Below are positions 26,701 through 63,403 of a stretch of 64,000 nt of DNA, piece after piece; the stretch's first letter is position 1, and each line of letters starts with the position of its first letter. Source of the DNA: Candidatus Doudnabacteria bacterium (GTDB lineage: Bacteria; Patescibacteriota; Doudnabacteria; UBA920). The stretch is from NCBI GenBank assembly GCA_963837465.1, contig CAWINB010000004.1, positions 522,853-586,852 of the forward strand, read 5' to 3'. Both the position numbers and the translations under genes were made by a program. The notes below the pieces were generated by a model, which was not told the DNA's origin, did not search any database, and was given only the letters and a program-made list of their open reading frames with translations.

Positions 26701-26703
26701 AAA

Positions 26704-28605
26704 TTATGATTTATTATTCCATATTTCTTCTAATACAATAGTCCCACTATTAGGTCTATTTTTTTTATCTAGGAGATCAATGCTAACTTTTACTGGAATT
26801 TTTACAGCCAGACCTGCAAAAAAACAGCTACCTGTTGAAAGTATAGAAAGAGAGTCAAATGATAGTTTGTCTAAATAAGACACTGTTTTATTAATTGCAT
26901 TTATATCATAATTATTTACCAATTTGTGAATAAAATAATTATGCAACTGAGAGATAATTGTTGTAGAAATATCGTAAGGTCTTTGACTGGCAATTGTTAA
27001 AAAAACATTAAACTTTCTTCCTTCTTTGATTATTTCTTCGAATGTTTCAAGTCTATAATCTTTCCAGGTTTCACTTTCTCGTTCTGAGGAACTCGATAAA
27101 ATATTATGAGCTTCGTCTACAATTAAATGCAATGATTTGCCTTCATAATTATTTTTATGTTCTTCATAAAGTTTTTTGGCAATAATTAGGGGTAATGTTT
27201 TTTTAATTTCAAGATTAGTATTTTTTAAATTTAAAACAACTAAATTTTTACCAGATGGAAAAATTGAATTGCTACTTTCTGTATCTAATATCTTCTCTAT
27301 ATCTTTTTGTTTACTCTTTAATTTATTAATTGCTGGAGAAATATGCTCATTTTGAGCCTTATCATTATAGACATCAAATATTATTTGTAGGTAAAGAAAA
27401 TGTATTAGTTTTGAGATGGCATTTTTAGGGAAAACATAGGCATCAATTTTATTATATAAATCTAAGTTGACTATTTCCTCTTCAGAAATTTGTTTATGTA
27501 CCGTACTACGGGGTAACATAAAATAATTTAAAGTATTGTGCCATTCTGGTATTTTGATTGAATTTGTATCCGTATCTGATATACTCAGAATAATTTTTAT
27601 ATAATCTAATAAAATATGCGACTTTTCTTTTATAACCATTAACAAAATATCTTTTAATCTTTTTTTGAGAATATTTTTAAAAAATTCAAGTGGGTTATTA
27701 TCGTTGCCCATCTCATCTTTTTCTTTATGAATTTTCCTGTAAAAATCAATGGCTCTACTGATAAATGGTCTTTGAGTTTTGTCAGTAGCATTTGAAAGAA
27801 TGGAAATTAGTTCAACATTCATCAAATCGGCTTCTTTTAAGGGTATCTTTTTATCTGTTTCAATTGCACTTAATTCCTTTTTTGTATCTAAAAAATACAC
27901 TTGTTTATTTTCCGTTAGAATCTCATCTTTGTCTCCACCTTTAATTTCTTTTGCATATTCTCCATTAAAATCAAAAATAACAAATTTTGAATTTTCATTA
28001 AAATTGGAGTTGTCTTTATATAATTTAAATAGCTCATGATAAATCTTTGCCAAAGTATTAGACTTACCGCTACCGGTATTTCCAAAAATACCAATATGGC
28101 TGGCGAACAAACCGTTAACACTTACTTCAATTTCTTGAGAAGGCTCTTCTGTTAAAGGACCCAAGGGTATTTTTTGTTCTGTATCTTTATAAAATTGATG
28201 TAAGATATTAAATTCTTCTTTATCTAACAAATAACACTTGTTGTCAATTAATGGCATTTCTTTAATACCCTGCTCAAATTTAACTCCATCAAAATGTCCA
28301 AATAAAGTAACCTCTAAATATCGGACAATTTTTTGTTCTTCTTTATTATATTCTTCATTAAAAATCCTTTCGGTTGTGATAAATTCTCCCTCTACCTTAC
28401 CAATAATTTCAACAAACCCTTTCATAATTTTTACAAAACCACCAACAGAAACATTTTTTAAAATTTTGCCCTGATATAAAAGATGGGATGAGTTTTTATT
28501 TTTATTTACCTTAATTTTTACCTTTCTGCCCTCAACAGAAGAAACGTAGCCAATAATAAAAATTGACTCCTTAGTAAGGCTTCTTTGTATTTGTTCATTA
28601 CTCAT
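26704..28605 (-). CDS. HerA-like (DUF87) ATPase, defence-associated
   Basis: 633 aa. N-terminal HAS-barrel-like region (YLEVTLFGHF), Walker A GIFGNTGSGKSNT, Walker B LHLIVDEAHN. 3-bp gap to hsdR, 8-bp overlap with upstream gene. Confidence 0.7.
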   Translation of the reverse strand: MSNEQIQRSLTKESIFIIGYVSSVEGRKVKIKVNKNKNSSHLLYQGKILKNVSVGGFVKIMKGFVEIIGKVEGEFITTERIFNEEYNKEEQKIVRYLEVTLFGHFDGVKFEQGIKEMPLIDNKCYLLDKEEFNILHQFYKDTEQKIPLGPLTEEPSQEIEVSVNGLFASHIGIFGNTGSGKSNTLAKIYHELFKLYKDNSNFNENSKFVIFDFNGEYAKEIKGGDKDEILTENKQVYFLDTKKELSAIETDKKIPLKEADLMNVELISILSNATDKTQRPFISRAIDFYRKIHKEKDEMGNDNNPLEFFKNILKKRLKDILLMVIKEKSHILLDYIKIILSISDTDTNSIKIPEWHNTLNYFMLPRSTVHKQISEEEIVNLDLYNKIDAYVFPKNAISKLIHFLYLQIIFDVYNDKAQNEHISPAINKLKSKQKDIEKILDTESSNSIFPSGKNLVVLNLKNTNLEIKKTLPLIIAKKLYEEHKNNYEGKSLHLIVDEAHNILSSSSERESETWKDYRLETFEEIIKEGRKFNVFLTIASQRPYDISTTIISQLHNYFIHKLVNNYDINAINKTVSYLDKLSFDSLSILSTGSCFFAGLAVKIPVKVSIDLLDKKNRPNSGTIVLEEIWNNKS

Positions 28606-29719
28606 GCTTTTCAGGTTTCAAGTTAATTCGCTTAAAAAAAACTTCTGTAACCGTACTTAAATCATAAGAATGGATCTCTTCTTCTCCCTCAAATTCATTC
28701 AAAACAATCGTTATGTTTGGAAACTTGAGAATTTCCATCTTATCTTCCATTTCTTTTCTTTTTTCTTTTGAGTGTAAAAATATGAAAATCCGCAGTGTCG
28801 GATTTGATTTTGCAACCCGTTTAGTTATTTCTTTAATATGTTGGTCTGTCATTGAAAAGCCAATCACAAAGAGAACAGAATTTACACGTTCTAATTCACT
28901 AGAATATGAGCGTAATAACTCATAATAATATTTATTTAGTACTGTTTCAGAAAACTTTGCACTCTCTGGATTTACAACAAGTATTTTTTCTTTATAATCA
29001 TCTGTAAACCTTTTCCCAGTCCTTTTTAACAACTTACTATCAAAATGATCAAGCTTAGAAGAAAGCAATATTTTTCTATCTTCTCCTGTCTTGCTGGTTT
29101 CATATTTCCAAGTAAGCGAACCATGAACTTTTAAAATATTAAAAATTGGGATTTCTGATTTATGATCAAAATGCAAACTTCTCTGAAAGACAGATTTTTT
29201 AAAGTTAGATAAAGAAAACGTAGGGTTTAATCTTCCTGAAAAACCATCATTATAATCAATGAACAAATCTTCTAAAGTTTTTTCAAAAAATGGATCAATA
29301 TTTGTAGTAAATATGTTAACTTGTTTATTAAGTATGGTAGTTTCTCTTTCTAAAATTAGCTTAGTTATTGTTTGCAAAAATTTTTCATAAGATTTTTTTG
29401 TATCCCTAAAATCAATTTCTTCAGTCCTGTCCTCACCGTTACTATTTTTTAAACTATTTCCTGTTGCATTTTTTATGGAATCTGTTGAAAATTGTTGTGA
29501 AAAAACCTTTTTATTTGGAAGCATTACCGTTTCTATATACTTTTTATAACCTAGTATTTGCTCTTTGGTTTTGTTGTCCCTAATTGCATTATTTATTTCG
29601 CTTTCAATACCACCTAAGATTGGCAAGAATGGAGTAGAAATACCAGCACCAAAAAGAAAGTTCACATTCGAACTCTGAATTATTTCTTTTAGTTCTGTTA
29701 TAAATTTATCTTTTTTCAT
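28598..29719 (-). CDS. SIR2-like NAD-binding domain protein, defence-associated
   Basis: 373 aa. VNFLFGAGIS (sirtuin GAGIS Rossmann motif) and LKVHGSLTW (catalytic His in the HG motif). Confidence 0.65.
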   Translation of the reverse strand: MKKDKFITELKEIIQSSNVNFLFGAGISTPFLPILGGIESEINNAIRDNKTKEQILGYKKYIETVMLPNKKVFSQQFSTDSIKNATGNSLKNSNGEDRTEEIDFRDTKKSYEKFLQTITKLILERETTILNKQVNIFTTNIDPFFEKTLEDLFIDYNDGFSGRLNPTFSLSNFKKSVFQRSLHFDHKSEIPIFNILKVHGSLTWKYETSKTGEDRKILLSSKLDHFDSKLLKRTGKRFTDDYKEKILVVNPESAKFSETVLNKYYYELLRSYSSELERVNSVLFVIGFSMTDQHIKEITKRVAKSNPTLRIFIFLHSKEKRKEMEDKMEILKFPNITIVLNEFEGEEEIHSYDLSTVTEVFFKRINLKPEKHE

Positions 29720-29725
29720 ATACCT

Positions 29726-30928
29726 CTATACAAACAACCCTTGCATCAAGCCTTTTTTCCATTGCTCGGCTTGGGTGATTTGTTGTTGTTTAGATTCTAT
29801 TACATTGTCGACCGAAGTTAAAAAATCTGCGATTTTTTGCTGTTCCGGAAGGGTTGGAACGGGTAATTTTATATTTGAATATTTAGAAATCCAATGCCTG
29901 CCGTGTCCGCCAATTTCATATTTAATTTGGGTCATAGCTTCATATATAAATTTTATATCGGTCCCATCTTTTGCTTTTAAAATTTTCATCGCCGATGATT
30001 TAACTTTAAATGGAAAATCAACAAACTGCGATGTTGTAGTAAAATCATCAAATATTATTACAGGCAAATCAGTTGTCAGAAAAATTCCACTCGTTTCGTC
30101 TGTAAATCCCAATATAAAAGTTTTACCGGCAGTTAAAACAGGGGTTTTGTAACTACTATCGTATTCTGTGCTTTTTACAATATAATTAGTTGGCTGTTCA
30201 TAATCTAAGCAATCCGCCAACTTTTTCCCTTCCCATTTGGGAAAATCTTTTCCTTTTTCATTTTTAAAACGGATTTCTTGGGAAAATATTTTTTGTACTA
30301 TTCCTTTTTTGTAGGATTCAAAAGATTCTTTTTGCTTTTTTAAATTTTCTATCCACTCATCAACTGCCCCAACAAAACCTATTAACTTTTTTTGTTCGGG
30401 CAATGAGGGTGTATGAATACTAAAATTAGAAACTTGGGCCAAAGAAATATTACTTTGAGCCAATCCTACTTTTAGTCTGTTAATTTGGTTTTGAATAAAA
30501 TCCGAACGCAAAACTTCCCTTATATATTTTGAACTAACCCCACTTTTTGGTGAAATAATCGCAAGTGCCTGGTTTGTATTGGCAGGTAGGACATCTTTAT
30601 TAGCCATCACCACCCGCCCAAGAGCCCCAGCAATTGAAAACAAAATATCACCTTCTTTTAACTGAGACCTTTTTAAGGCCTGATTACAATTTTCATCAAT
30701 ATGAGCAAATTTATCAATTAAAAAATTGCCGTCTTCGGTAATTGATTCAATCTTAATAAAATTAATTCCGCTCTTAGTATAGTTAAACCCCAACGTAGTC
30801 GGGGTAGTCCCTTTTGTAATTCTATCGGAAATATCCCCCAACTTTTTTTCCTCCCACTCACCAGAAAAACCCGGAAAGCGGAGTTTTGGGATTTTTTTAT
30901 TTTGCAGTTGTGCGGCTTTTGCTGGCAT
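29726..30928 (-). CDS. hsdS: Type I R-M specificity subunit
   Basis: 400 aa. Two target-recognition domains separated and followed by conserved LPSLPEQKKLIGFV... and LPVPTLPEQQKIADFLTSVD helices. Confidence 0.8.
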   Translation of the reverse strand: MPAKAAQLQNKKIPKLRFPGFSGEWEEKKLGDISDRITKGTTPTTLGFNYTKSGINFIKIESITEDGNFLIDKFAHIDENCNQALKRSQLKEGDILFSIAGALGRVVMANKDVLPANTNQALAIISPKSGVSSKYIREVLRSDFIQNQINRLKVGLAQSNISLAQVSNFSIHTPSLPEQKKLIGFVGAVDEWIENLKKQKESFESYKKGIVQKIFSQEIRFKNEKGKDFPKWEGKKLADCLDYEQPTNYIVKSTEYDSSYKTPVLTAGKTFILGFTDETSGIFLTTDLPVIIFDDFTTTSQFVDFPFKVKSSAMKILKAKDGTDIKFIYEAMTQIKYEIGGHGRHWISKYSNIKLPVPTLPEQQKIADFLTSVDNVIESKQQQITQAEQWKKGLMQGLFV

Positions 30929-30930
30929 AA

Positions 30931-32508
30931 TTAAAAAGGTTTGTTGATTTTTAGTTCCTCACAAAATTCCGCAATCTTTTTTTGTAGACTTAACTCATTT
31001 ATGTTTAATTCTTTGAGTATCTTAGCAACGCTTTCTATATCAATAATCTCTTCTTCTTCAAATGTGTCCACATAGCGCGGAATGTTTAGGTTGTAATCGT
31101 TTTCTTGAATTTCTTTTATGGTTGCGCGGTGGGAATACTTTTCTATTTCTTTTCGGTCTTTATAGGTTTCAAAAATTTTGGCGATGTGTTCATTTGTTAA
31201 ATAATTTTGATTACCTCTCTTTTCAAATTCTATGGAAGCATCAATAAACAAAATATCTTCATCATCTTTGCGGCATTTTTTAAAAACAAGAACTGTTGCG
31301 GGAATGGAGGCTCCATAAAACAGGTTTGCCGGCAGGCCGATAACCGCATCCAAATAGTTTTGTTTTTCTATAATATATTTTCTTATGTGGCCCTCCGCAC
31401 CGGACCTAAAAAGCGCGCCATGAGGCAAGACTATGGCCATTGTGCCGTTGTCGGCAAGGTGGTGAAGCATATGAGTTACAAAGGCATAGTCCGCGGCGCT
31501 TTTAGGTGCCAGTCTGCCGTATTGGGAAAAGCGGTCATCGTGCGCTAGGGCTGGATCTGTGTCTCCTTTCCACTGGGCGGAAAAAGGTGGATTGGCAACA
31601 ATCGCCTCGGCCTTTAGGTCTGGGTACATATCTTCTTTAAGCGTATCGCCTTGGCGAATGGAAAAACGAGTAAAATTTATCCCGTGCAAAATCATATTCA
31701 TTCTGGCCAGGTTGTATGTAGTTGGATTAAGTTCTTGCCCGTAATAATTAGCTACGTCCGTAAATTCACCAAGACGAAGCAAAAGGGAGCCGCTACCACA
31801 GGTTGCGTCGTAAGCAGATTTAATACGTTTTTTATCTAACGAAACAATTTGTGCAAGCAAACGCGATATTTGAGCGGGGGTGTAATACTCGCCGCCTTTT
31901 TTACCGGCCCCGGCCGCAAATTCTCCAATTAAATATTCGTAGGCATCACCTAACAGATCGCTCTTAGCGTCTTCAAGTTTAAAATCAATACCCGCTAGAA
32001 GCGTTAGCACTTCCACAACAACTTCGTTCTTTTCGTTTTCCCGTGAACCCAGCTTTGAGGAAGCAAGGTCGATATCATCAAACAAGCCCTTAAAGTCGTC
32101 TTCGCTTGCTGTTCCGGCGGAGGTCTTTTCTATATCGTTAAGGATATTTTTAAGATCCTCAAGAATAAAGGTTGTTTGACCCTTTATTTCACCTTTCCCT
32201 TTTTTAACCAGGTATGAAAAAAGTTCCGTCGGTTTAAGATAAAAACCAAGCTCGTCAATACAAGCCTGTTTTGTATGTACCAGATATTCCCGGCCTTCTG
32301 CCGCAGTTTCTTTTACTTGGTCAAAAGTAATTTTGTCGCTAACTAAAAGTTTTTCATTTACATAGCGCTCCAGCTTTTCAGAAAGATATTTATAGAAAAT
32401 AAAGCCAAGAATATAGTTTTTATATTCATCAGCGTTCATCTTCCCGCGAAGCACATTCGCAACGCCCCATAATTGTTTTTCTAACAGCCTTTTTTGTTCT
32501 TCTGACAT
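30931..32508 (-). CDS. hsdM: Type I R-M N6-adenine DNA methyltransferase subunit
   Basis: 525 aa. HsdM N-terminal domain; catalytic motif IV VANPPFS; SAM motif DATCGSGSLL. Confidence 0.9.
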   Translation of the reverse strand: MSEEQKRLLEKQLWGVANVLRGKMNADEYKNYILGFIFYKYLSEKLERYVNEKLLVSDKITFDQVKETAAEGREYLVHTKQACIDELGFYLKPTELFSYLVKKGKGEIKGQTTFILEDLKNILNDIEKTSAGTASEDDFKGLFDDIDLASSKLGSRENEKNEVVVEVLTLLAGIDFKLEDAKSDLLGDAYEYLIGEFAAGAGKKGGEYYTPAQISRLLAQIVSLDKKRIKSAYDATCGSGSLLLRLGEFTDVANYYGQELNPTTYNLARMNMILHGINFTRFSIRQGDTLKEDMYPDLKAEAIVANPPFSAQWKGDTDPALAHDDRFSQYGRLAPKSAADYAFVTHMLHHLADNGTMAIVLPHGALFRSGAEGHIRKYIIEKQNYLDAVIGLPANLFYGASIPATVLVFKKCRKDDEDILFIDASIEFEKRGNQNYLTNEHIAKIFETYKDRKEIEKYSHRATIKEIQENDYNLNIPRYVDTFEEEEIIDIESVAKILKELNINELSLQKKIAEFCEELKINKPF

Positions 32509-34299: not shown

Positions 34300-34741
34300 G
34301 TCTTCACCTCCCCATTTTTTTCCTGTTTTCGGTCTTTCTTCCACCCCCCCCATTTTCCCCTCTCTGTTTCCTTTGTTTTTTTGGTTTGTTTTAAGTTAGT
34401 TTAGTATATTTGTATTTAGTATTTAAGTATTTTAAGTATAGTATTTAGTAGTATATTGTTTTTAGTATTATTATCTATTTTGTCGTTCAGTTAGATTATC
34501 TGGTGATATATAGTAGTCAGGGGTATTTGGAGTAGTGAGAGGTAATGGAATTAAGGGGTTTAACAGCCAAACTGTATGAATGATGTTCATACAGCTGTTC
34601 ATACAGCTGGAAAGTACCAGTTGCTTCCATTTTAGGCTAAAGTTTTGGCCTCGGCAAGGGTGTATTGCAGGGGGTAATGGGGTAGGCAAAGTTAGCTGTT
34701 TTGGATATAATAGGTGTGAGCTTCACTAAGAAAATTCACCA
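34300..34741 (-). repeat. 0.5-kb repeat family, copy 2 (reverse orientation)
   Basis: Reverse complement of the core seen at 15430. Boundary ...AAAATTCACCA at 34741. Lies downstream of SR2. Confidence 0.7.
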
Positions 34742-39323: not shown

Positions 39324-40913
39324 CTAAATAATTGCTGAAATGACCTGTTCAAATTGTTTAAACTCGCTTATAATAAGGTTGTAATTCTGAAAACAGTAGT
39401 CCACCAAATTAAAACATTTAGGGTTTTCAGAGTAGGATTTACGGGCGGCACATAGTGCCGCCCATTGTGTTTGTGGGGTGAATTCAATTTTCCCATTCTG
39501 CAAAAACAGGTTCGAACCAAAGACTTTTACTGCAAAGGATTTCTTGTCTGCAAGGGAGGGGCTGGTTGCGATTTCGTTGAGGGTTTGTGCGGTTTTTGTA
39601 AATTCTTTGAGAGGTTCTAACCACGCTTTGTCCTTTTTTTCAAGACGGGCAATTTGCCCCTCCAAAGACTTCTTTTCGGACACTAAGTTGTTCTTGTCGG
39701 TACGGTAGTCCTGTCGTTCAATATCCTGGTCAAGGTACATATCTTTCAGTCTTAGGAGCTTGCGGTCAATGTCCTGTATTTTTAACCGCAAATCTTGAAC
39801 AAAAGTCGCGGTGATATTAGTAGATTCTTTTTCATCTTTATCAATCAATTCCAGCCATTGTTTTTCCCACTCTGGGGGCATGGCGTAGTTGGTAAGTAGC
39901 TTGGATAGCTGCCGTTCTAATTCCTCGGCCCTTATACAGGGCTGGGAGCACGGCTGTCTGCGTTTACCGCAGTGGTAATAGGTATAATAATGGGTATTGC
40001 CGTTTTTTTGGTGCTTGGTCTTGTTCTCAGCCGTAATCATACAATGGCATTCGGCGCAGCGCAACAAGCCGCAAAGAGGCTGGGGGGCAAAGACTTTTAC
40101 CCTGTTCTTGCTCCGCTGTTTTAAGATCTCCTGCACCTTGTCAAAAAGCTGCTTGGAAACCAGCGGCTCATGCTTGCCCGGGAAAAGTTCACCGCCATAG
40201 CGGAACAAGCCGCAGTAAAACGGATTGGCCAGAATGTAAGCGGCTTGGTCACGCTTTACGGCTCTGCCCCCAATACCATTTTTTACATTAGTTTTCTTGG
40301 TTTCAATACCATTGGCAAACAAAAACACCGAGATGTCTTCCAAAGAAAAACGGTTTTGCGAATAGCGTTCAAAGGCTTGTTTGATAATGGGAGCTTTATG
40401 TTTGTTTAGGATAATTGACTTATTTTTTAAGTCATTAAGGTAACCAAGGGGAGCCAAGCCCGGATATTCCCCACGTCTGGCTTTTTCATAAAGTCCACGT
40501 TTGGTATTCGTGCTTAAATCCCGAATATACTGGTTTGCAATCCCAAATTCTACGTTCATTAACATGACATTATCAGCCGAGCGGTAACTGCGGTCATGAG
40601 TTTGAATGTGCTGAATGATTCCTTCTTGGAGCAACCACTCTATTTGAGCGGCGTCTACGGGGTTACGGGCAAGTCGGTCCAGTTTCCAGCAAATAATGCC
40701 ATGGGCTTCGCCCTGCTCAATACGGCGGAGCATTTCGTTAAAGACAGGGCGTCCTGGGCGCTTGGCTGATTGTTTCTCCACAAACTCCTCGGATATATTT
40801 AGCCCTTCAGTTTTAGCCAAAGTCCTTAAAACGGCTAGTTGGTCTTCAATAGACCGAACCTGCTTGTCTTCAACGTCGGTGGATTTGCGGGCGTAGAGGA
40901 AATAGTTTGGCAT
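39324..40913 (-). CDS. Large serine recombinase (SR3), paralog of SR1
   Basis: The ORF runs to 41054 but the likely start is MPNYFLYARKSTDVEDKQVRSIEDQ. Alignable with SR1 along its whole length. The C-terminal coding region carries the variant hairpin GGGCGGCAC-ATA-GTGCCGCCC. Confidence 0.85.
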   Translation of the reverse strand: MPNYFLYARKSTDVEDKQVRSIEDQLAVLRTLAKTEGLNISEEFVEKQSAKRPGRPVFNEMLRRIEQGEAHGIICWKLDRLARNPVDAAQIEWLLQEGIIQHIQTHDRSYRSADNVMLMNVEFGIANQYIRDLSTNTKRGLYEKARRGEYPGLAPLGYLNDLKNKSIILNKHKAPIIKQAFERYSQNRFSLEDISVFLFANGIETKKTNVKNGIGGRAVKRDQAAYILANPFYCGLFRYGGELFPGKHEPLVSKQLFDKVQEILKQRSKNRVKVFAPQPLCGLLRCAECHCMITAENKTKHQKNGNTHYYTYYHCGKRRQPCSQPCIRAEELERQLSKLLTNYAMPPEWEKQWLELIDKDEKESTNITATFVQDLRLKIQDIDRKLLRLKDMYLDQDIERQDYRTDKNNLVSEKKSLEGQIARLEKKDKAWLEPLKEFTKTAQTLNEIATSPSLADKKSFAVKVFGSNLFLQNGKIEFTPQTQWAALCAARKSYSENPKCFNLVDYCFQNYNLIISEFKQFEQVISAII

Positions 40914-41144
40914 ATATTTTTGTTTAAAATTAAAGGGGCAACCCTGGCTGTCCAACTCCACCAAACAGTCGTCTGGCTTCGCTGGCAGGGTTGCCACCTT
41001 AAAAGCGAATATACAAAATAAAAGACTGTTGGTAAATATGGAATTGGACAGCAATAGTATTATATCACAATTTTGTGACTAGGAAAAAAGTGCTATAATT
41101 AAGGCAATAAAATCATTGTCTGTACTTATTTAACTTTAGGTAAA

Positions 41145-53541: not shown

Positions 53542-54390
53542 TTACAAACTGACGGTTATTTGCTTGTCTTTGAGGATTAATTTGCTTTTTAGGCAGGCCA
53601 TCAGTTCTCTCTTTTCCAGTAAACTACCGTCGGTCAAAATATATTTGGTATAATTTTTTAGGTCTAAATTTTTCTGTAGTAGTTGATCCTGCTGGCTCTG
53701 ACCTAATACTAAGTGTCGGAATTTATTATAGCTCTCTAGCTTTAGCTCTATCTGCTGTTTGATGCCCAGCTTATCCAAATCTACTTCCTCGATAACTTTT
53801 AGCAGCTGACCTACTAAGAGGTCTTCTTTAATATAGTTGCCTGGGCAAGCCCGGTCTTTACTCTTGGTACAGCAGTAGTATACGTATTTAGCTACCGAAC
53901 CGTCTTTGAGATTTTTAAACTTTTCATTGGCGCTTATGCTGGAGCTACAAATGCCGCATACTATGAGTCTGGTAAAAGCGAATTCTTTACCGATAGTTCT
54001 GGGCTTAAGCTCAGCATCCAAAGTTGCTTGGGCTTTATCGAACATTTCCTTTGTGATAATCGGCTGGTGCTTTCCTTGGAAATATTTTTTACTTCTTCGC
54101 GGATACTCAATCTGCCCGTAGTAGAACGAGTTCCTTAATAATAAATAAAGATTACTTAAGTGGAACGGCTTGCCATTTTTAGTTACAAACCTGACCTCAT
54201 CTCGCGGCCACAAGTAGACCCTCCGTCCGCTCTCGCCCTGCCCGACTTTTTCAAACACTTGCTTAACCACCGGCGCTCTAATTGGATCAGGGATTACCGA
54301 GCAAGGCCTGTCTTTATGATATTCGTTGACGTACTCGGTCGGAGCCATTCCCCTGCAAGGGTGTTTTGCAGGGGGTAAAGGGGTGGCCAA
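53542..54390 (-). pseudogene. Truncated large serine recombinase (SR4)
   Basis: 282-aa ORF keeps the recombinase domain, zinc ribbon (CGICSS...YYCCTKSKDRAC) and coiled coil. It lacks the resolvase catalytic domain; the N-terminal MATPLPPAKHPCRG is translated from a degenerate copy of the repeat core. Confidence 0.65.
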
Positions 54391-55821: not shown

Positions 55822-56196
55822 ATGACCTGGGTAATTCTTTCTTTTTTGGCGCCGTTATTCTGGGCAACCGGCAATGTGGGCGACAAATATATTTTTGCCA
55901 AATGGCTTAAGCGTTCATTTGCCGCTTTAATGGCCTTTGGTTTTTTTGGCGCAATCGCCGCAATAATTATTTTTGCTTTTAGGGGTTTTGGGCATTTTTC
56001 CGCGGGTTTGGTTCTGGGAGCCTTGTTTTCCGGCGCGCTTTATATGGGTGCGAACATTTTTTACTACCGGGCCGCGCGATTGGGAGAAGTATCCAGGATT
56101 ATCCCCATAATCTATCTGGAGCCGCTTTTTACCGCAGCGGTATCAGCAGTTATTTTAGGAGAGATATTTTCAATTTTAGAGATTTTGAGTATTTGA
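55822..56196 (+). CDS. Small EamA/DMT-like membrane protein
   Basis: 124 aa, 4 TM helices. Followed by hairpin GGAGAGGACTCATATAGAATCCTCTCC. Confidence 0.4.
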   Translation: MTWVILSFLAPLFWATGNVGDKYIFAKWLKRSFAALMAFGFFGAIAAIIIFAFRGFGHFSAGLVLGALFSGALYMGANIFYYRAARLGEVSRIIPIIYLEPLFTAAVSAVILGEIFSILEILSI

Positions 56197-57036
56197 AATT
56201 TTTGCTTAAATTTGAGAGAAAATAAACGGAGAGGACTCATATAGAATCCTCTCCACGTTTAGTATTAGAATTATATCAGTTTTTTGACTTTTGTCAAGCT
56301 TAAGTCTTATACAATGGAACATGGCCCCTATCTTTGAGACAGCCTCTAAAGGAGGACGGTACCCCAATTGCTGAAACCGGAGGGTTGCCCGGAAGCTGTA
56401 CAAAGAGCATAAGCCTGCCACACTGACTTGATGACAATCGATATGACAGACTTAAGCGTTACGAGCATAGCTCAAATCAAGGAATTTCTAAAGGTCAATA
56501 CAGCAATTAATTTTACCTCAGTTTCCAGAAAGGAGAAATATGAATGGATTAACAACGTCTTAAACAAGTTTGGCTATGTCCGGCTTAAAGGCAAAAAAGA
56601 CAAGGGGCAGATTAAGGAATATATCCAACGGATGACCGGCATGTCGGGCAGACAGCTAAAACGACTGATTACCAACAAGAGAGGAAGTGGGTTAGTGGCC
56701 TTGTCCCCGAATTGGGGCAAGAAAAACCGGTTTGTTACTGTTTATGGCCCGGCAGAAATACTATTGCTGGCTGAAACCGATAATCTGCACCAACGAATGA
56801 ATGCCCATGCCACCAAACAGATCCTAATGGCTGAATATGAAATATTCGGTGACGAACGGTTTAAAAGACTAAAAGATATTTCCGTTTCCCATATCTACAA
56901 TCTGCGAGTTAAAAGAATTTACACCAGCCACTCCACCACCTTTACCATAACCGATCCAGTAAGCACCCCGATTGGTATTATTGACCTTCGCCAATTAGCT
57001 TGAATATGGATTAATTTTGTGCTACCATGAAGGTAT

Positions 57037-58877: not shown

Positions 58878-60743
58878 TTATCTCGCTGCTCTTTTCCTGT
58901 CGTTCGCGTTCAAAAGTTTTTTGCGGATGCGGATGGATTTTGGGGTTACTTCTACCAGTTCGTCGGGACCGATGTATTCCAGGGCGAAGTCGAGTTCTAC
59001 GGGGCGCGGGGGAGTAAGAATAATCGCCTCGTCGGTTCCGCTGGAGCGGATGTTGGTCAGTTTTTTGGTTTTGCAGACGTTAAGTTCTATGTCGCTGTCC
59101 ACGGCGTTTTTGCCTACAACCATACCCTCGTAAACTTCCACGGCCGGGCCGATAAACATAATGCCGCGTTCCTGCGCGTTGTTAAGGCCATAGGCGTTAC
59201 TAACGCCGGTTTCGGAAGAAATTAAACTGCCGTGGTCGTTGGCGTGGGTATCTACATCGTGCACGGGTTTGTAGCTGTCAAAAAGGTTGTTGATGATAAC
59301 CGTACCGCGGGTTTGGGTTAAAAGCGCGCTCTTAAGGCCAATAAGCCCGCGCGTGGGAATTAAATATTCGGCGTGAATTTCGCCGGAGGGGTTGGTATCC
59401 ATTACCTGCATTTCGCCGCCGCGCCTTCCTAAATTTTCTATCATCGCGCCCTGGTATTCGCTGGGCACGTCTATGCTGGCAATTTCATAGGGTTCCATCT
59501 TCGCGCCATCTTTTTCGTGGTAGATAACCTGCGGCTGGGATACTTGCAGTTCAAAACCTTCTCTTCTCATCGTTTCTATCAAAATTCCCAAATGCAGTTC
59601 GCCGCGTCCGGAAACCAAAAAGTTTTCGCCGCCGCCGCCCGAGCTTTCGGTTAAGGGCGCCCCTTCCATAGTTTGCACTTTCAGCGCCACATTAATTTCC
59701 AGCTCTTTAATAAGTCTGTCGCGGATGTTCCTGGAAGTTACCAGTTTCCCCTCTTTGCCGGCGAACGGGGACGTGTTGACGCCAAAAGTCATTTTAATGG
59801 TCGGCGGTTCTATTTCCACCGGCTCTAAGTGAATAGGGTTTACCGGGTCGGTTAAAGTTTCGCCAATGGAGACATCGTCAAAACCGGAAATGGCCACAAT
59901 GTCGCCGGCCGTGGCCTCTTCCACGTCCGCGGGTTTAAGGCCAATGTACATTTGCAAAGAAGTAATTTTGCCCGGAGTTTTGCTCTCGTCCGGTTTAATC
60001 CGCACAATGTTCTGGCCTTTTTTGATGTTGCCGGAAACAATTTTACCAATGCCCATTTTGCCTTTGTAGTTGTCGTAAACCAGGGCCAGCACCAGCATGG
60101 CAAACGGATCTTCCGGTTTTACGTCCGGAGCCGGGATGTATTTTACAATGGCGTCAAAAAGAGGGGAAACATCCGGAGCCGCGCCGGAAGCGATTTTTTT
60201 CTTTAAAGTTTCAAGGTCCGTGTCTGCCAAACCTTTTACGCCCGAGGCGTAAACTATGGGAAAATCCAGTTGTTCGTTAGTGGCGTTAAGTTTGCCGAAT
60301 AAATCAAAAGTTTTGTCCACGGTGCCGTCGGGGTTGGCGCCGTCTTTATCTACTTTGTTAATTACCACAATGGCTTTAAGGCCAAGTTCCAAAGCTTTTT
60401 TAAGCACAAATTTGGTTTGCGGCATTGGGCCTTCTTTGGCATCCACCAAAAGCAAAACGCCGTCCGCCATTCTAAGCGTGCGTTCTACTTCTCCGCCAAA
60501 GTCGGCGTGTCCCGGAGTATCTACAATATTAATTTTAGTGCCGTTGTAAACCAAAGAAGCGTTTTTGGCCCGAATAGTAATACCGCGCTCGCGCTCCAAA
60601 TCCATACTGTCCATTATCAAATCTTTGGTGTCGGCATTGTCCTTAACCGTCTGCGTCTGCTTAAGCATAGCGTCCACTAAAGTAGTCTTGCCATGGTCAA
60701 CGTGGGCAATAATGGCGATGTTGCGAATGTTGTTTCTTTTCAT
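58878..60743 (-). CDS. typA: Translational GTPase TypA/BipA
   Basis: 621 aa. [33 protein letters not shown]-like domains. Confidence 0.9.
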
Positions 60744-61034
60744 ACTTTGTTATCCTTATGTCCGCTAATAAGTCGCTGATAGGAACGCTGATTTATCGCT
60801 GAGCGCCATTTCAGCGTTTGCTCAGCGTACTTATCAGCGTCTATTCAGCGGTGTGCAAATAAAAATCCCGGATTTCTTTTCGGGAAAGATACGTAAAATA
60901 TAGCATAAATATTGATGATTTGTCAACTATTTATCCCGTTAGAAAAAAAAGCTTGTAATTATAAGGGTTTTGTAATTTGATAAAACTTTTATTGCTTATA
61001 TAAAAGTAAAAGAAGTAATTTTTTTCTATTGGGA

Positions 61035-61063
61035 TTGACGAAATAGAGGAAAAGTGGTATAAT
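61035..61063 (+). promoter_or_regulatory. Near-consensus sigma70 promoter
   Basis: TTGACG (61035-61040), 17-bp spacer, TGgTATAAT (61055-61063). Confidence 0.55.
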
Positions 61064-61070
61064 ATAGTCA

Positions 61071-61140
61071 AAGTTCAGAATCGGAGAATCGGAGAATCGG
61101 AGAATCGGTAGTGCAGGCCCGTGGCCTGCTTTAGCGTTTT
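61071..61140 (+). ncRNA. Candidate small RNA with GGA-containing tandem octamer repeats
   Basis: A predicted transcript of about 70 nt: (GAATCGGA)x4 at 61076-61107, then terminator GCAGGCC-CGT-GGCCTGC plus TTTAGCGTTTT. Confidence 0.3.
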
Positions 61141-61425
61141 GCAAGCTCCTTAAAAATAAAAATCCTTTGCGGAAAGCAACTTGGCGGTTTGTGTGTCATC
61201 CCGGAAAATTTATATTGCTATTAAATTTATCAGGGATCCATATTCAAAAGACACAATAAAGTTGTCAGTTTGCTTTCCGTGAAAATGGGAAGAAAGAATC
61301 GGCAACAACAGGTGAGAGATAGCCTGTTGCCAAGAACAACATATCTTTCCAGTTTGGTAAAACTGGGCTACAAAAATTACCCTGCGCCAACATCCAAGGA
61401 TGTCGCAGCCCTTTAGGAGGGAAAA

Positions 61426-61758
61426 ATGATTATCATTTATGAAAAAGGAACCTGTAAAATTTGCGTGCCGGAAGGTACGCAAATTGGGAGGGTGGGTATA
61501 TCTCCCTCCGCTGGGGAGAAGTATGTAGACTGGGTTAATACCAGTCTACCCCAACCTTGGGGAAGTCCGGCCATCCGATTGCCGGATGGCAGATATTTTA
61601 AGGTCGGGTCCAGTTCTTCCGGACCCAACACCATAGAAATAATAGAAGCTCTGCCTCCCGAAACTTTATTTGTGGGGGTTAGTGAACCCCAATGGGTGGC
61701 GGCGGAAGCCCATGACCCTGGCCACAAAACCCGCAGATGGTGGGAGAGCGCTGGGTAG
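61426..61758 (+). CDS. Hypothetical protein
   Basis: 110 aa. SD AGGAGG 6 nt before ATG. Confidence 0.35.
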   Translation: MIIIYEKGTCKICVPEGTQIGRVGISPSAGEKYVDWVNTSLPQPWGSPAIRLPDGRYFKVGSSSSGPNTIEIIEALPPETLFVGVSEPQWVAAEAHDPGHKTRRWWESAG

Positions 61759-62374
61759 CAAGCGTTACCTTTTTAGTTGGTATTTAGTCGGCGATTTTTG
61801 AAAAAAATCCTTATCAAAATTAGATTATTCAACAGATACGCGCGTTTTGAAATTTATATTTCAACACATACGTATCCCTTGAAGCAACTTAACTAGTCAA
61901 GCCACGATTTTTTGTCTTAATTGTCTCTTAAAAGGTTAATCTCACCAACTAAAAAGGTAACGCTTTCCGCTGGGTCTATCCAGTTATTCGGCGCTCGGGG
62001 AGGGGCGCCGATGCAGGTGAAGTGATAATTCTATTATAGTCGGTATTAGCCGACAAACACTGTCAAAATAGGCAGGAAGAAGTTTGCAGTAAAAACTTAG
62101 GGCTTATGCCCAAAGGACACCTTGTTAATCTTGGCATTCTTTTTTTTGTGCAAAATGCTTTTTGTGCGGCTTTTTGCTATAATATATAGAGAAAAGAATC
62201 AAATTTAGAAACAGAAAATCGTTTGGATTTAAATCCTAAATCACTAAACGCCATTCCGAGCGCAGCGAGGAATCCCTTAATCTGAGAATTTTAGATTAAA
62301 TAAGGGATCCCTCGGGTGCACTCGGGATGGTTCGCAATCTGAAATCAAAAATCTTTACATCATAAATATTTCCT

Positions 62375-63403
62375 ATGCCCTTAGCCAAACAACGCGCGCA
62401 AAATATCAGCTTCTATCTTCTTTTAGCCATTGTCGGGTTGACGGTGGTTTTTATGTTTCTGCCTTTTTTTAAACTGATTGCATTGGGCGGGATTTTGGCC
62501 GTGCTGTTTCATCCGCTAAAGGTTAAAATTTCCAAATATATAAAGTCGCGAACTTTGGCGGCCATAATTACTTTGGTTCTGGCAATTATCATAATTATCT
62601 TACCGCTTTACGCCATTGGACAGCTGGTGTTTAACGAAATCTACAGCGTTTACAGCCACGCCAAAAATGGCGGTTTTGGTTTAAACCAGAGTGAAATATT
62701 AAACCATCTTAGCGGCAACTCGCGCCAGGCCGCGCAAAATCTTTTAAACACCGCCGGGCAAAAAATTTCCGGGCTGGCGGGCAATGCTTTTTACAGCATC
62801 AGCGGCCTGCTTTCCAACATTGCCAGTTTTGTGGTCAGCGTAATTTTGGTGGTGTTTACTTTATATTACTTTTTAAAGGACGGTGATAAATTTAAACTTT
62901 TTATGGAAAAAATTTTTCCGCTGTCCCATACCCACGAAGCTTTGCTGGTGGACAAACTGGAAATGGCCATAAAAGGAGTGGTACAGGGATCGTTTACGGT
63001 GGCGCTGCTGCAGGGCACGGTTTCCACAATCGGCTTTTATATTTTTGGCGTGCCCAACCCGCTGCTGTGGGGCGTGTTTACAGTGCTTGCCGCCCTGGTT
63101 CCCACCGTGGGCACTTTACTGTCGCTTGTCCCGGCGGTTCTCTATTTGTTCATTACCGGCCATACCGGAGACGGCATTGGCATGACTATTTGGGCATTTT
63201 GCAGTATTCAGGGCATAGACAATTTTATTAGTCCCCGGTTGATTGGACACAAAACCAATTTGCATCCGCTGCTGACTTTATTAAGCATTCTTGGAGGCAT
63301 TGGCATGTTCGGCTATTTGGGATTTTTAATCGGGCCAATCCTGATGGCGGTGTTTATGGCGCTTCTTGATATTTACGCGGACGGGGCAAAGCAGAAAACG
63401 TAG
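62375..63403 (+). CDS. AI-2E family transporter-like membrane protein
   Basis: 342 aa, about 8 TM helices. Overall architecture fits PF01594. Confidence 0.5.
   Translation: MPLAKQRAQNISFYLLLAIVGLTVVFMFLPFFKLIALGGILAVLFHPLKVKISKYIKSRTLAAIITLVLAIIIIILPLYAIGQLVFNEIYSVYSHAKNGGFGLNQSEILNHLSGNSRQAAQNLLNTAGQKISGLAGNAFYSISGLLSNIASFVVSVILVVFTLYYFLKDGDKFKLFMEKIFPLSHTHEALLVDKLEMAIKGVVQGSFTVALLQGTVSTIGFYIFGVPNPLLWGVFTVLAALVPTVGTLLSLVPAVLYLFITGHTGDGIGMTIWAFCSIQGIDNFISPRLIGHKTNLHPLLTLLSILGGIGMFGYLGFLIGPILMAVFMALLDIYADGAKQKT

What the first reader, a model, noticed from the sequence alone, without database searches (positions are those of the whole stretch)
61035..61140. Candidate small RNA with four tandem GAATCGGA repeats between a near-consensus promoter and a terminator
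TTGACG-17 bp-TGgTATAAT is one of the strongest promoter matches in the window. About 10 nt downstream come (GAATCGGA)x4, then a GC hairpin with a U-tract. The predicted transcript is about 70 nt with no ORF. Repeated GGA motifs in single-stranded context are the hallmark of CsrA/RsmA-sequestering sRNAs (CsrB/RsmZ type). It could also be a leader for the downstream 110-aa ORF (61426-61758, which has a perfect AGGAGG SD).
Basis: partly seen in the sequence, partly recalled or inferred. Interest (0 to 1): 0.55.

Follow-up and report, generated by a model that had tools for sequence, protein, structure and literature searches.

The report
Octamer repeat in an orphan-gene leader
A strong promoter, four perfect copies of an 8-base repeat and a hairpin really are there, but they most likely form the start of the messenger RNA of a lineage-specific orphan gene in an uncultured Doudnabacteria-like bacterium, and nothing tested supports a CsrA-titrating small RNA.

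Summary
TTGACG-17-TGgTATAAT lies at 61035-61063. (AGAATCGG)x4 at 61077-61108 is perfect. A 7-bp GC hairpin at 61113-61129 is followed by an interrupted U tract.

The CsrA-sponge reading fails what I could test:
- There are only three GGA motifs, in AUCGGAG context with no A(N)GGA. None sits in a hairpin loop, and neighbours are 8 nt apart.
- Rfam gives no match and there is no csrA in the window.
- About 25 Doudnabacteria relatives show no conservation.

The element lies in a roughly 1.2-kb lineage-specific insert between the divergent bipA and AI-2E transporter genes, which are 127-375 nt apart in 18 of 23 relatives. The insert carries ORF110, which has no credible homolog, an AGGAGG ribosome-binding site and host-like codon usage, and I found no other good promoter for it. 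The 355-nt leader is strongly structured (z = -5.3).

The same octamer array occurs in 96 unrelated metagenome contigs, both coding and intergenic. At one of those loci the copy number differs between strains.

Best reading: a slippage-generated repeat in the 5' leader of an orphan gene, next to a promoter-proximal attenuator-like hairpin. A separate roughly 65-nt RNA is not excluded. The interest is low.

The parts
61035..61063 (+). Sigma-70-type promoter: TTGACG, 17-nt spacer, extended -10 TGgTATAAT. Predicted transcription start near 61070.
   Evidence: 11/12 plus TG; 4 such sites in the window against 0.03 expected. The same TGnTATAATATA form occurs at the AI-2E promoter, 62175-62186 (D6).
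61077..61108 (+). Perfect tandem repeat (AGAATCGG)x4, at about +8 to +39 of the predicted transcript. It contains three GGAG/GGA motifs and four GANTC sites.
   Evidence: Identical in the independent assembly L001.
61113..61142 (+). GC hairpin (7 bp, 3-nt loop, 61113-61129) plus the interrupted U tract TTTAGCGTTTTGC. It is terminator-like or attenuator-like. The last repeat unit can pair with the U tract and extend the stem.
   Evidence: -17.5 kcal/mol, z = -2.7. Not called by the terminator scan.
61111..61134 (+). Speculative 7-codon mini-ORF (GTG CAG GCC CGT GGC CTG CTT TAG) that overlaps the hairpin. Its start lies 8 nt after the last GGAG.
   Evidence: Read directly from the sequence. A start codon in that window has a chance probability of about 0.3, so this is an idea, not a finding.
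61163..61290 (+). Long imperfect hairpin (about 128 nt) in the leader.
   Evidence: -45.4 kcal/mol, z = -5.6. The whole leader 61070-61440 gives z = -5.3.
61295..61331 (+). Fifth, isolated copy of AGAATCGG (61295-61302), running into a 10-bp bulged hairpin (61301-61331).
   Evidence: it is the only copy in the window outside the array; hairpin z = -4.0. After allowing for the 8 rotations of the unit, the proximity is only marginally significant (p about 0.05).
61415..61758 (+). AGGAGG ribosome-binding site (61415-61420) and orphan ORF110 (61426-61758, 110 aa).
   Evidence: no credible homolog and no family hit; frame-0 codon score is 0.157. Genuine genes average 0.268 (sd 0.089) and the best off-frame score is -0.095. 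AlphaFold2 mean pLDDT is 43.
61757..61967 (.). 211-bp AT-rich element resembling a MITE (miniature inverted-repeat transposable element). It has 22-bp perfect inverted repeats (61760-61781 and 61944-61965) and is flanked by the direct repeat CGCTGGGT (61749-61756, 61968-61975). It truncates ORF110.
   Evidence: (I2), 27, 81: clean excision restores a 126-aa ORF. No other copy in the window or in 181 loci.
60933..62149 (.). Lineage-specific insert of about 1.2 kb between the divergent bipA and AI-2E transporter promoters. It contains all the parts above.
   Evidence: the gap is 127-375 nt in 18 of 23 relatives and 1631 nt here. Only 60861-60932 and about 62145-62195 are conserved.

Best explanation
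The promoter at 61035-61063 is real. It most likely drives the mRNA of ORF110, an orphan gene carried on a roughly 1.2-kb insert that this lineage acquired between bipA and the AI-2E transporter gene.

The (AGAATCGG)x4 array is a long simple-sequence repeat made by replication slippage. It sits at about +8 to +39 of a 355-nt, highly structured 5' leader. The GC hairpin with its interrupted U tract, just after the array, would act as a promoter-proximal partial terminator or attenuator, or as a 5' stabilising stem. In that case a short RNA of about 60-72 nt would be a by-product of attenuation rather than a dedicated regulator.

The repeat may be neutral. It may instead tune expression through its copy number, as the 5'-UTR repeats of hmw1A and uspA2 do, or by offering three SD-like GGAG motifs.

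Shown here: the anatomy, the lineage-specific insertion, the coding-like character of ORF110, the absence of another good promoter, and copy-number variation of this same unit at another locus. Inferred: transcription, partial termination, and any effect of the repeat on expression.
For: - Promoter quality is far above chance.
- The array is perfect and is reproduced in a second assembly.
- ORF110 has an AGGAGG 5 nt before its ATG. Its in-frame codon score is inside the range of genuine genes and well above all off-frame scores.
- No other promoter-like site was found on the + strand between 61063 and 61426.
- The leader folds far better than shuffled sequence, z = -5.3.
- The U tract is interrupted and a standard scan does not call the hairpin a terminator, which fits partial read-through.
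- The neighbouring bipA gene has a similar layout: a strong promoter, then a GC hairpin plus U tract within about 10 nt, then a long structured leader. That layout is conserved with different stem sequences in about 20 relatives. This shows that such a promoter-proximal hairpin can belong to an mRNA leader in this clade.
- The region is not conserved and lies in a lineage-specific insert.
- (AGAATCGG)n with n of 3 or more occurs in 96 unrelated metagenome contigs. Some are in-frame in genes (ychF, a glycosyltransferase), some intergenic.
- At one locus with near-identical flanks the number of units is 6, 5 and 15 in three contigs. This shows the unit expands and contracts.
- 5'-UTR repeats that modulate expression are documented for hmw1A (PMC12721329) and uspA2 (PMC4679880).
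Against: - There is no transcript data, so both the promoter-to-ORF link and the efficiency of the hairpin are inferred.
- The stem is strong (7 bp, 6 of them G-C) and its first three tail bases are U, so termination could be efficient. ORF110 might then be silent or transcribed from elsewhere.
- ORF110 has no homolog and is truncated by a MITE-like insertion, so it could be decaying.
- Only one sample carries this organism, so copy-number variation at this locus is untested.
- Four copies is short for a classical contingency locus.
- A fifth AGAATCGG 187 nt downstream on the same strand hints at a sequence-specific role that simple slippage does not explain.
Confidence: 0.5

Rival explanations
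1. It is a stand-alone small RNA of about 60-72 nt that ends at the hairpin. Its single-stranded 5' repeat region acts in trans, either by base-pairing or by binding a protein. The CsrA/RsmA sponge is the specific version proposed by the first reader.
For: - The layout (strong promoter, unstructured 5' region, 3' GC hairpin plus U's, no ORF) is the classic sRNA layout.
- The first two repeat units are unpaired in the predicted folds.
- It has three GGA/GGAG motifs.
- csrA transcripts have been reported from ultra-small groundwater prokaryotes (PMC9938205), and about 30% of bacterial genomes carry csrA (PMC13443453). CsrA therefore cannot be excluded for this genome.
Against: - It is not conserved in any of about 25 relatives and lies in a lineage-specific insert.
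- Rfam gives no match.
- The short unit folds no better than shuffled sequence (z = -0.8 and -1.5).
- For CsrA: there are only 3 GGA motifs, none in A(N)GGA or CAGGA context, none in a hairpin loop, and neighbours are 8 nt apart (criteria from PMC7652899). There is no csrA in the window. Csr sRNAs are described for Gammaproteobacteria.
- For base-pairing: the best predicted duplex with the 48 translation-initiation regions of the window (-26.4 kcal/mol) equals the mean for shuffled versions of the RNA.
- The U tract is interrupted.
Confidence: 0.2
2. It is a translation-coupled attenuator. The tandem GGAG motifs recruit 30S subunits to the GTG mini-ORF (61111-61134), which overlaps the hairpin. 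A ribosome there would prevent hairpin formation and allow read-through into ORF110. This is a mechanistic variant of the leader reading.
For: - The last GGAG (61099-61102) lies 8 nt upstream of the GTG at 61111.
- The 7-codon ORF spans the whole hairpin and stops inside the U tract (sequence).
- A CUCC at 61146-61149 can pair with a GGAG of the array.
Against: - A start codon at a suitable distance is expected by chance about 30% of the time.
- GGAG is only a 4-nt SD core.
- There is no conservation with which to test the idea.
- No comparable system is known in Patescibacteria.
Confidence: 0.07
3. It is a DNA-level element. The four 8-bp direct repeats at +8 to +39, plus the fifth copy at 61295, are binding sites for a repressor that blocks transcription. 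Alternatively they form a cluster of GANTC methylation sites that acts as an epigenetic switch, as the GATC sites at agn43 do.
For: - Each unit contains GAATC. Four GANTC sites in 32 bp is the densest cluster in the window, and GANTC is mildly under-represented overall: 108 observed against 146 +/- 13 expected.
- All five exact copies of the octamer in 64 kb lie in this one transcription unit.
Against: - An 8-bp period puts successive sites on different faces of the helix, which is unlike known operator arrays.
- I did not identify a GANTC methyltransferase in the window. The only methylase I found is a type I HsdM.
- The density of GANTC follows automatically from the tandem repeat.
- There is no conservation.
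Confidence: 0.07
4. The promoter is functional but the cargo is decaying. The insert is a remnant of a mobile or foreign segment, and neither the repeat nor the hairpin has a function.
For: - The insert is lineage-specific.
- It is full of palindromic and MITE-like pieces.
- ORF110 is truncated by an insertion and has no homolog.
- The surrounding window is rich in IS elements, recombinases and defence islands.
Against: - The promoter is near-consensus and intact.
- The ribosome-binding site is perfect and codon usage is host-like.
- The array is perfect, with no decay between copies.
Confidence: 0.15

Closest known systems
Heptamer repeat (ATCTTTC)n in the 5' UTR of Haemophilus influenzae hmw1A/hmw2A (PMC12721329)
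   Same: A short tandem repeat lies between the transcription start and the start codon and is transcribed as part of a long structured 5' UTR. Stable hairpins are part of the same leader.
   Different: - hmw arrays have at least 11 copies and form one arm of the hairpin by pairing with a G-rich region. Here there are 4 copies, mostly unpaired, and no complementary array.
- Copy-number variation and dependence on RNase III are shown for hmw and are untested here.
- The downstream gene of hmw is a known adhesin. Here it is an orphan.
AGAT tetranucleotide repeat in the 5' UTR of Moraxella catarrhalis uspA2, and the poly-G tract of uspA1 (as summarised in PMC4679880)
   Same: A repeat between the promoter and the start codon, with a copy number that affects expression.
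   Different: The unit length and copy number differ (6-23 copies there). Those are host-adapted pathogens with surface-protein genes. No expression data exist here.
Intergenic TAACTGA direct repeats of marine Beggiatoaceae, Cyanobacteria and Bacteroidetes (PMC4679880)
   Same: Two to six tandem copies of a short unit in 5' leaders, proposed to bind a post-transcriptional regulator (S1, Csp or CsrA were considered). The same unit recurs in unrelated lineages.
   Different: - There are 169 such sets in one genome, mostly a few nucleotides upstream of start codons. Here there is a single array in 64 kb, 317 nt upstream of the start codon.
- No similar arrays were found in 653 kb from relatives.
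CsrB/CsrC/RsmX/Y/Z CsrA-sequestering sRNAs
   Same: A non-coding unit with repeated GGA and a 3' hairpin, under a strong promoter.
   Different: - It has 3 GGA motifs, whereas CsrB carries many repeated CAGGA(U/A/C)G elements.
- The context is wrong (AUCGGAG), the motifs are not in hairpin loops, and the spacing is 8 nt.
- It is not conserved and has no Rfam match.
- The lineage is outside the group where such sRNAs are described.
Long simple sequence repeats (LSSR) with 5-11-nt units in prokaryotes (Mrazek et al. 2007, as summarised in PMC4679880)
   Same: A perfect array of a 5-11-nt unit that is longer than chance allows. Such repeats are sporadic in distribution, prone to slippage, and found in both coding and non-coding DNA.
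   Different: None in kind. This is the category it falls into. Only its position, directly between a near-consensus promoter and a hairpin, is noteworthy.
Type III toxin-antitoxin loci (toxIN, cptIN, tenpIN)
   Same: The order is promoter, tandem repeats, terminator, ORF.
   Different: - From my own knowledge, repeat units there are at least about 34 nt and fold into pseudoknots, and the toxin gene follows the terminator closely.
- Here the units are 8 nt, the gap is 285 nt, and ORF110 matches no defence or toxin model.

Membership tests
CsrA/RsmA-sequestering sRNA (CsrB/RsmZ type) | Many GGA motifs per molecule | tested here: inconclusive
   There are three GGA motifs in 61070-61140, and the fourth unit ends in GGT. 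This is fewer than in dedicated sponges. Base-pairing sRNAs with at least 2 GGA motifs do bind CsrA, however (PMC7652899).
CsrA/RsmA-sequestering sRNA (CsrB/RsmZ type) | GGA in a consensus context: A(N)GGA, CAGGA(U/A/C)G, or the SELEX consensus RUACARGGAUGU | tested here: not met
   There are no A(N)GGA motifs. Every GGA is in AAUCGGAGAA context. Consensus taken.
CsrA/RsmA-sequestering sRNA (CsrB/RsmZ type) | GGA presented in the loop of a short hairpin | tested here: not met
   The minimum-free-energy and centroid folds leave the repeats unpaired or weakly paired, with no GGA-in-loop hairpins. One GGAG pairs with CUCC at 61146-61149.
CsrA/RsmA-sequestering sRNA (CsrB/RsmZ type) | Site spacing that lets one dimer bridge two sites (10-63 nt, optimum about 18) | tested here: inconclusive
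   Neighbouring GGA motifs are 8 nt apart, which is too close. The first and third are 16 nt apart, which is allowed (criterion).
CsrA/RsmA-sequestering sRNA (CsrB/RsmZ type) | A cognate csrA/rsmA gene in the genome | not testable with these tools
   tblastn with E. coli and B. subtilis CsrA finds nothing in the 64-kb window or in the 181 loci. The remaining roughly 800 kb of the genome could not be fetched. csrA expression has been reported for some ultra-small groundwater prokaryotes.
CsrA/RsmA-sequestering sRNA (CsrB/RsmZ type) | Conservation in related genomes, or a match to a curated model | tested here: not met
   Rfam gives no hit, even at E up to 10. blastn finds no match for 61035-61140 in about 80 bipA loci, and the insert is absent from relatives.
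Repeat-mediated expression tuning or phase variation in a 5' UTR (hmw1A, uspA2 type) | A perfect tandem array of a short unit, longer than chance allows | tested here: met
   TRF reports 8 nt x 4.0 copies at 100% identity. Only 5 arrays with period 5-12, at least 3.5 copies and at least 90% identity occur in 653 kb of relatives, and none has period 8.
Repeat-mediated expression tuning or phase variation in a 5' UTR (hmw1A, uspA2 type) | The array lies between the promoter and the start codon, in the transcribed leader | tested here: met
   By position: the -10 ends at 61063, the array spans 61077-61108 and the ATG is at 61426, with no other promoter-like site between. Transcription itself is inferred.
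Repeat-mediated expression tuning or phase variation in a 5' UTR (hmw1A, uspA2 type) | Copy number varies between strains or within a population | not testable with these tools
   The organism is seen in a single run, ERR10755945, and both assemblies show 4 copies. The same unit does vary (6, 5 and 15 units) at another locus, L135/L142/L176.
Repeat-mediated expression tuning or phase variation in a 5' UTR (hmw1A, uspA2 type) | Expression of the downstream gene depends on copy number | not testable with these tools
   This needs reporter or transcript data.
Type III toxin-antitoxin | Repeat units of roughly 34 nt or more, and a ToxN/AbiQ/CptN/TenpN-family toxin directly downstream (criteria from my own knowledge) | tested here: not met
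   The unit is 8 nt. ORF110 starts 285 nt after the tail of the hairpin. It has no PADLOC, Pfam or PHROGs hit.
Rho-independent (intrinsic) terminator | A GC-rich stem followed immediately by a U-rich tract | tested here: inconclusive
   The stem has 7 bp, 6 of them G-C, with a 3-nt loop. Folded with its flanks it gives -17.5 kcal/mol. The tail UUUAGCGUUUU has only 4 U in its first 8 bases and fails the scan's rule of 5 in 8.

The most novel reading that the evidence does not exclude
The short RNA from 61070 to about 61140 is a genuine regulator specific to Patescibacteria. Its tandem single-stranded GGAG/GGA octamers would titrate an RNA-binding factor: a divergent CsrA-like protein, ribosomal protein S1, or the anti-SD of 30S subunits. 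That would make it a protein or ribosome sponge in a lineage where no such riboregulator is known. The isolated fifth octamer in the ORF110 leader would be the cis target of the same factor.
Probability: 0.05. Interest if true: 0.65.

Novelty: new member of a known kind. Interest (0 to 1): 0.2.

Why it matters
If the leading reading is right, this is an ordinary, if tidy, example of a long simple-sequence repeat in the 5' leader of a strain-specific orphan gene. Its main value is as a caution that repeated GGA next to a hairpin does not make a Csr sponge.

It would matter more if the array proved hypervariable and tuned ORF110 expression. I am not aware of contingency-type regulation having been described for ultra-small Patescibacteria.

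The by-product finding may be more useful. A promoter-proximal hairpin plus U tract is conserved at the 5' end of the bipA leader across Doudnabacteria, with different stem sequences in different genomes. It is a better candidate for a real cis-regulatory RNA element and can be tested by comparative analysis.

Tried and rejected
- **Rfam.** Gathering thresholds on the whole window gave only two tRNAs. E up to 10 on 60700-62400 gave only miRNA-type noise on an unrelated hairpin.
- **Homologs of ORF110.**
  - The word-indexed search of 5.8 billion proteins found only ORF110 itself.
  - The full phmmer search of 1.84 billion representatives found five weak hits. All are heterogeneous repeat proteins (Ig-like, WD40, Calx-beta, DUF11), which I judged spurious.
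  - Pfam, PADLOC and PHROGs gave nothing.
  - The AlphaFold2 single-sequence model had pLDDT 43 and was not usable, so I ran no fold search.
  - The viral-contig search with the restored 126-aa protein found nothing.
- **Strain variants.** Exact-protein look-ups for ORF110, AI-2E and BipA returned only the same run, ERR10755945. The metagenome scan for the left flank of the array returned 0.
- **Phage and plasmid BLAST** of the 1.2-kb insert gave no match.
- **(AGAATCGG)x3 in collections.**
  - There were 3 viral hits and 96 metagenome hits, none sharing the promoter or hairpin context.
  - L135/L142/L176 have a promoter-like upstream sequence and a downstream T run, but they lie in an unrelated defence island.
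  - Three composition-matched control octamers gave 0 viral hits each. This unit therefore belongs to a favoured family of repeats, but the counts are tiny.
- **Base-pairing targets.** RNAduplex against the 48 translation-initiation regions of the window did no better than shuffled RNA.
- **Complement of the repeat inside ORF110.** UCCGAUU occurs at about 61573. I rejected it as chance, because the probability is about 0.3 once the rotations of the unit are allowed.
- **csrA.** There is none in the window or the loci. The supplementary files of PMC9938205 hold no csrA detail.
- **GANTC methylation idea.** The under-representation is only mild and I found no cognate methylase.
- **RNAalifold on the bipA-leader alignment (A2).** It returned no structure because the MAFFT alignment is not in structural register. 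I used per-sequence folds instead.
- **Promoter-proximal hairpins as a general trait.** Only 3 of 24 extended -10 sites in the window have one under strict criteria.
Full report
**1. What is in the sequence**

The + strand reads TTGACG (61035-61040), a 17-nt spacer, and TGgTATAAT (61055-63). Thirteen bases further on comes (AGAATCGG)x4 at 61077-61108. After TAGT comes the hairpin GCAGGCC-CGT-GGCCTGC (61113-61129), followed by TTTAGCGTTTTGC.

- The consensus scan scores the promoter 11/12 with an extended -10.
- Only four sites in the 64-kb window are this good. Composition-matched simulations expect 0.03. The other three sit upstream of bipA, upstream of the 38611 gene, and upstream of a small ORF at 56240.
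- Tandem Repeats Finder (TRF) gives 4.0 perfect copies of an 8-nt unit, the best perfect short repeat in the window.
- A Logan assembly of run ERR10755945 is base-for-base identical over 1.59 kb, including the 4 copies, so the array is not an assembly artefact.

- The U tract is interrupted, and the terminator scan does not call the hairpin. The stem itself is strong: folded with its flanks it gives -17.5 kcal/mol, z = -2.7.

**2. Genomic setting**

- The left neighbour, on the minus strand, is bipA/typA. The right neighbour is an AI-2E family transporter. Further left are IS630-type and rve-type transposase fragments.
- The closest BipA relatives, at 72-88% identity, come from Candidatus Doudnabacteria and related Patescibacteria MAGs. 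The source contig is 868 kb.
- The AI-2E gene lies divergently upstream of bipA in 23 relatives. In 18 of them the gap is only 127-375 nt. In the window it is 1631 nt.
- blastn shows that only the bipA promoter and leader (60861-60932) and the AI-2E promoter (about 62145-62195) are shared. Nothing matches 61035-61140 or the rest of the gap.
- The finding therefore sits in a roughly 1.2-kb lineage-specific insert (about 60933-62149). Five relatives carry different insertions at the same spot, so this intergenic region appears to be an insertion hotspot.
- The insert has no match in phage or plasmid collections. Apart from its own inverted repeat it has no other copy in the window.

**3. What else the insert holds**

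*The leader.* Downstream of the hairpin the RNA is highly structured. The stretch 61070-61440 folds with z = -5.3. It contains:

- a 128-nt hairpin at 61163-61290 (-45.4 kcal/mol, z = -5.6);
- a fifth, isolated AGAATCGG at 61295-61302, running into a 10-bp hairpin (z = -4.0);
- two further small hairpins;
- AGGAGG 5 nt before the ATG of ORF110 (61426-61758).

*ORF110.* It has no credible homolog:

- 5.8 billion proteins searched by word index gave only ORF110 itself.
- 1.84 billion representatives searched by full phmmer gave only spurious hits to repeat proteins.
- Pfam, PADLOC and PHROGs gave nothing.
- Viral contigs gave nothing.

Its in-frame codon score is nevertheless 0.157. Genuine 330-nt gene chunks average 0.268 (sd 0.089, minimum 0.055), and the best off-frame score is -0.095. 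It therefore looks like a real coding sequence adapted to this genome.

*The MITE-like element.* The 3' end of ORF110 is interrupted by a 211-bp AT-rich element resembling a MITE (miniature inverted-repeat transposable element). It has 22-bp perfect terminal inverted repeats and is flanked by the direct repeat CGCTGGGT. Clean excision restores a 126-aa ORF.

*Promoters.* No other promoter-like site lies on the + strand between 61063 and 61426.

**4. Testing the CsrA-sponge reading**

The defining features are taken from the review PMC7652899:

- repeated CAGGA(U/A/C)G elements;
- the SELEX consensus RUACARGGAUGU;
- GGA in the loop of a short hairpin;
- bridging of two sites 10-63 nt apart;
- dedicated Csr sRNAs in Gammaproteobacteria, with FliW as the antagonist elsewhere.

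What is found here:

- There are three GGA motifs, all in AAUCGGAGAA context, and no A(N)GGA.
- The predicted folds leave the repeats unpaired or weakly paired, never in hairpin loops.
- Neighbouring motifs are 8 nt apart.
- Rfam gives no match, even at E up to 10.
- The element is not conserved.
- There is no csrA in the window or in any fetched locus.

I could not reach the rest of the genome. csrA expression has been reported for ultra-small groundwater prokaryotes (PMC9938205), and about 30% of bacterial genomes carry csrA (PMC13443453). The presence of CsrA therefore stays open. Membership of the CsrB/RsmZ family is not supported.

A generic base-pairing role also finds no support. The best predicted duplex with the 48 translation-initiation regions of the window is no better than for shuffled RNAs.

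**5. The nature of the repeat**

- The exact 24-mer (AGAATCGG)x3 occurs in 96 metagenome contigs and 3 viral contigs. Three composition-matched control octamers gave 0 viral hits each.
- The contexts are heterogeneous. They include:
  - long mixed arrays of GGGGAATC-type and GGAGAAAC-type units, often followed by the complementary array;
  - in-frame insertions in ychF, in a PMT-type glycosyltransferase and in a hydrolase;
  - intergenic arrays.
- None of them shares the promoter or hairpin found here.
- At one locus with near-identical flanks, three contigs carry 6, 5 and 15 units (L135, L142, L176). This is direct evidence that the unit expands and contracts by slippage.
- Comparable arrays are rare in relatives. 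There are 5 in 653 kb, and none has period 8.
- The array is thus a long simple-sequence repeat in the sense summarised in PMC4679880.
- The fifth copy 187 nt downstream is the only other exact copy in 64 kb. Allowing for the eight rotations of the unit, five non-array matches occur window-wide. Its closeness to the array is only marginally significant (p about 0.05).

**6. A comparison that bears on 'sRNA or leader'**

The divergent bipA gene has a similar layout.

- Its promoter (minus strand, 60926-60897: TTGACA, 18 nt, TGcTATATT) is followed within about 10 nt by the hairpin UCCCG...CGGGA and UUUUUAUUUG. A long leader built from CGCTGA/TCAGCG motifs comes next.
- The hairpin plus U tract is present in about 20 relatives with different stem sequences: UGCCC/GGGCA, UCCCG/CGGGA, CCCGG/CGGGG, GCGCAC/GUGCGU and GCCUG/CAGGC.
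- There it is unambiguously part of an mRNA leader. A promoter-proximal, terminator-like hairpin therefore does not by itself imply a separate sRNA in this clade.
- It is not a universal trait. Only 3 of 24 extended -10 sites in the window have one under strict criteria.

**7. Most likely mechanism**

Confidence is about 0.5.

- The promoter transcribes an ORF110 mRNA with a 355-nt structured leader.
- The octamer array is a slippage product at the 5' end of that leader.
- The hairpin acts as a partial terminator or attenuator, or as a 5' stabiliser.
- A short RNA of about 65 nt, if it accumulates, is a by-product.
- The repeat is either neutral or modulates expression. It could do so through copy number, as in hmw1A (PMC12721329) and uspA2, or through its SD-like GGAG motifs.
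- One speculative variant is that the last GGAG lies 8 nt before a 7-codon GTG mini-ORF covering the hairpin. That could couple translation to read-through.

Rivals: a stand-alone sRNA (0.2, of which the CsrA sponge is about 0.04), decaying cargo with no function (0.15), the translation-coupled attenuator above (0.07), and a DNA-level operator or GANTC methylation cluster (0.07). Only transcript mapping, read-level copy counts and a whole-genome csrA search can separate them.

**8. Verdict**

This is a new member of a known kind: a simple-sequence repeat in a 5' leader. It is confined to one lineage-specific insert in one MAG, so interest is low (0.2). The conserved bipA leader hairpin, noticed in passing, is a better target for follow-up.

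Noticed in passing
window 60853-60926 (minus strand); L002-L053, just upstream of bipA: The bipA promoter is followed within about 10 nt by a short GC hairpin plus UUUUUAUUUG. This is present in about 20 Doudnabacteria relatives with different stem sequences (UGCCC/GGGCA, UCCCG/CGGGA, GCGCAC/GUGCGU, GCCUG/CAGGC). It looks like a conserved promoter-proximal attenuator-like element in the bipA leader. Rfam has no match for it.
   Followed up: partly
window 60762-60851 (bipA leader); the same position in L004, L015, L021, L024, L026, L029, L031: The rest of the bipA leader is built from one short motif repeated directly and then invertedly with a period of about 11 nt. In the window this is CGCTGA x5 then TCAGCG x3, giving 41-nt arms that are 76% complementary. 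Each relative uses a different motif (for example ATCCGGAT, TTCCGTAG, CTAGGAAC), so the layout is conserved but the sequence is not.
   Followed up: partly
window 61757-61967: A 211-bp AT-rich MITE-like element has 22-bp perfect terminal inverted repeats and is flanked by the 8-bp direct repeat CGCTGGGT. It is inserted in the 3' end of ORF110, and excision restores a 126-aa ORF. It also carries promoter-like sites in both directions (61798-61826 on +, 61851-61824 on -), so an invertible switch is an alternative reading. No other copy is present in the window or in the 181 loci.
   Followed up: partly
window 56227-56297 (minus strand): This is the only 12/12 promoter with an extended -10 in the window (TTGACA, 16 nt, TATAAT). 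It is followed at about +9 by the hairpin GGAGAGGA...UCCUCUCC plus GUUUAUUUUC, which encloses the ribosome-binding site and ATG of a 42-aa ORF (56112-56240). That ORF is antisense to the 3' end of a 124-aa ORF with hydrophobic, membrane-protein-like sequence (55822-56196).
   Followed up: no
window 62245-62334: A long, near-perfect hairpin lies in the leader of the AI-2E transporter gene. It gave only weak miRNA-precursor-like Rfam noise. The Logan assemblies break here: L001 ends at 62275 and L085 starts near 62249.
   Followed up: no
window 23998-32508: A low-GC island (30-38% GC) holds a type I restriction-modification system: HsdR, HsdS and HsdM. A SIR2-like protein and a HerA-type helicase pair is inserted between hsdR and hsdS.
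   Followed up: partly
window 12392-14014, 39324-41054, 53542-54390; 15562, 34584, 43590, 53287: There are three large serine recombinase genes, one of them truncated. A 12-nt motif, CAGCTGTATGAA, is repeated at four places in both orientations, next to AT-rich degenerate tandem repeats (15692-15797, 34385-34472). This suggests several copies or ends of one mobile element.
   Followed up: no
window 7340-7385 and 7464-7503: Two degenerate 9-nt arrays, (AATGACAAA)x5 and (ATTTTTGTC)x4.4, lie in inverted orientation to each other in the gap before a type II secretion/pilus F-family gene (7509-8714).
   Followed up: no
L086-L181 (metagenome contigs): (AGAATCGG)n is one member of a recurrent family of G-rich 7-8-nt repeats (GGGGAATC, GGAGAAAC, GGGGAAC). 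These form long mixed arrays, often followed by the complementary array. L135/L142/L176 show 6, 5 and 15 units between near-identical flanks, inside a defence island with BrxL, a resolvase and JetD.
   Followed up: partly
L006, L015, L025, L029, L031 (upstream of bipA): The divergent bipA/AI-2E intergenic region holds different lineage-specific insertions of 0.5-1.8 kb in five relatives, with ORFs of about 209, 241 and 403 aa. The site appears to be a recurrent insertion hotspot.
   Followed up: partly
whole window: GANTC is mildly under-represented: 108 observed against 146 +/- 13 expected under a first-order Markov model.
   Followed up: no
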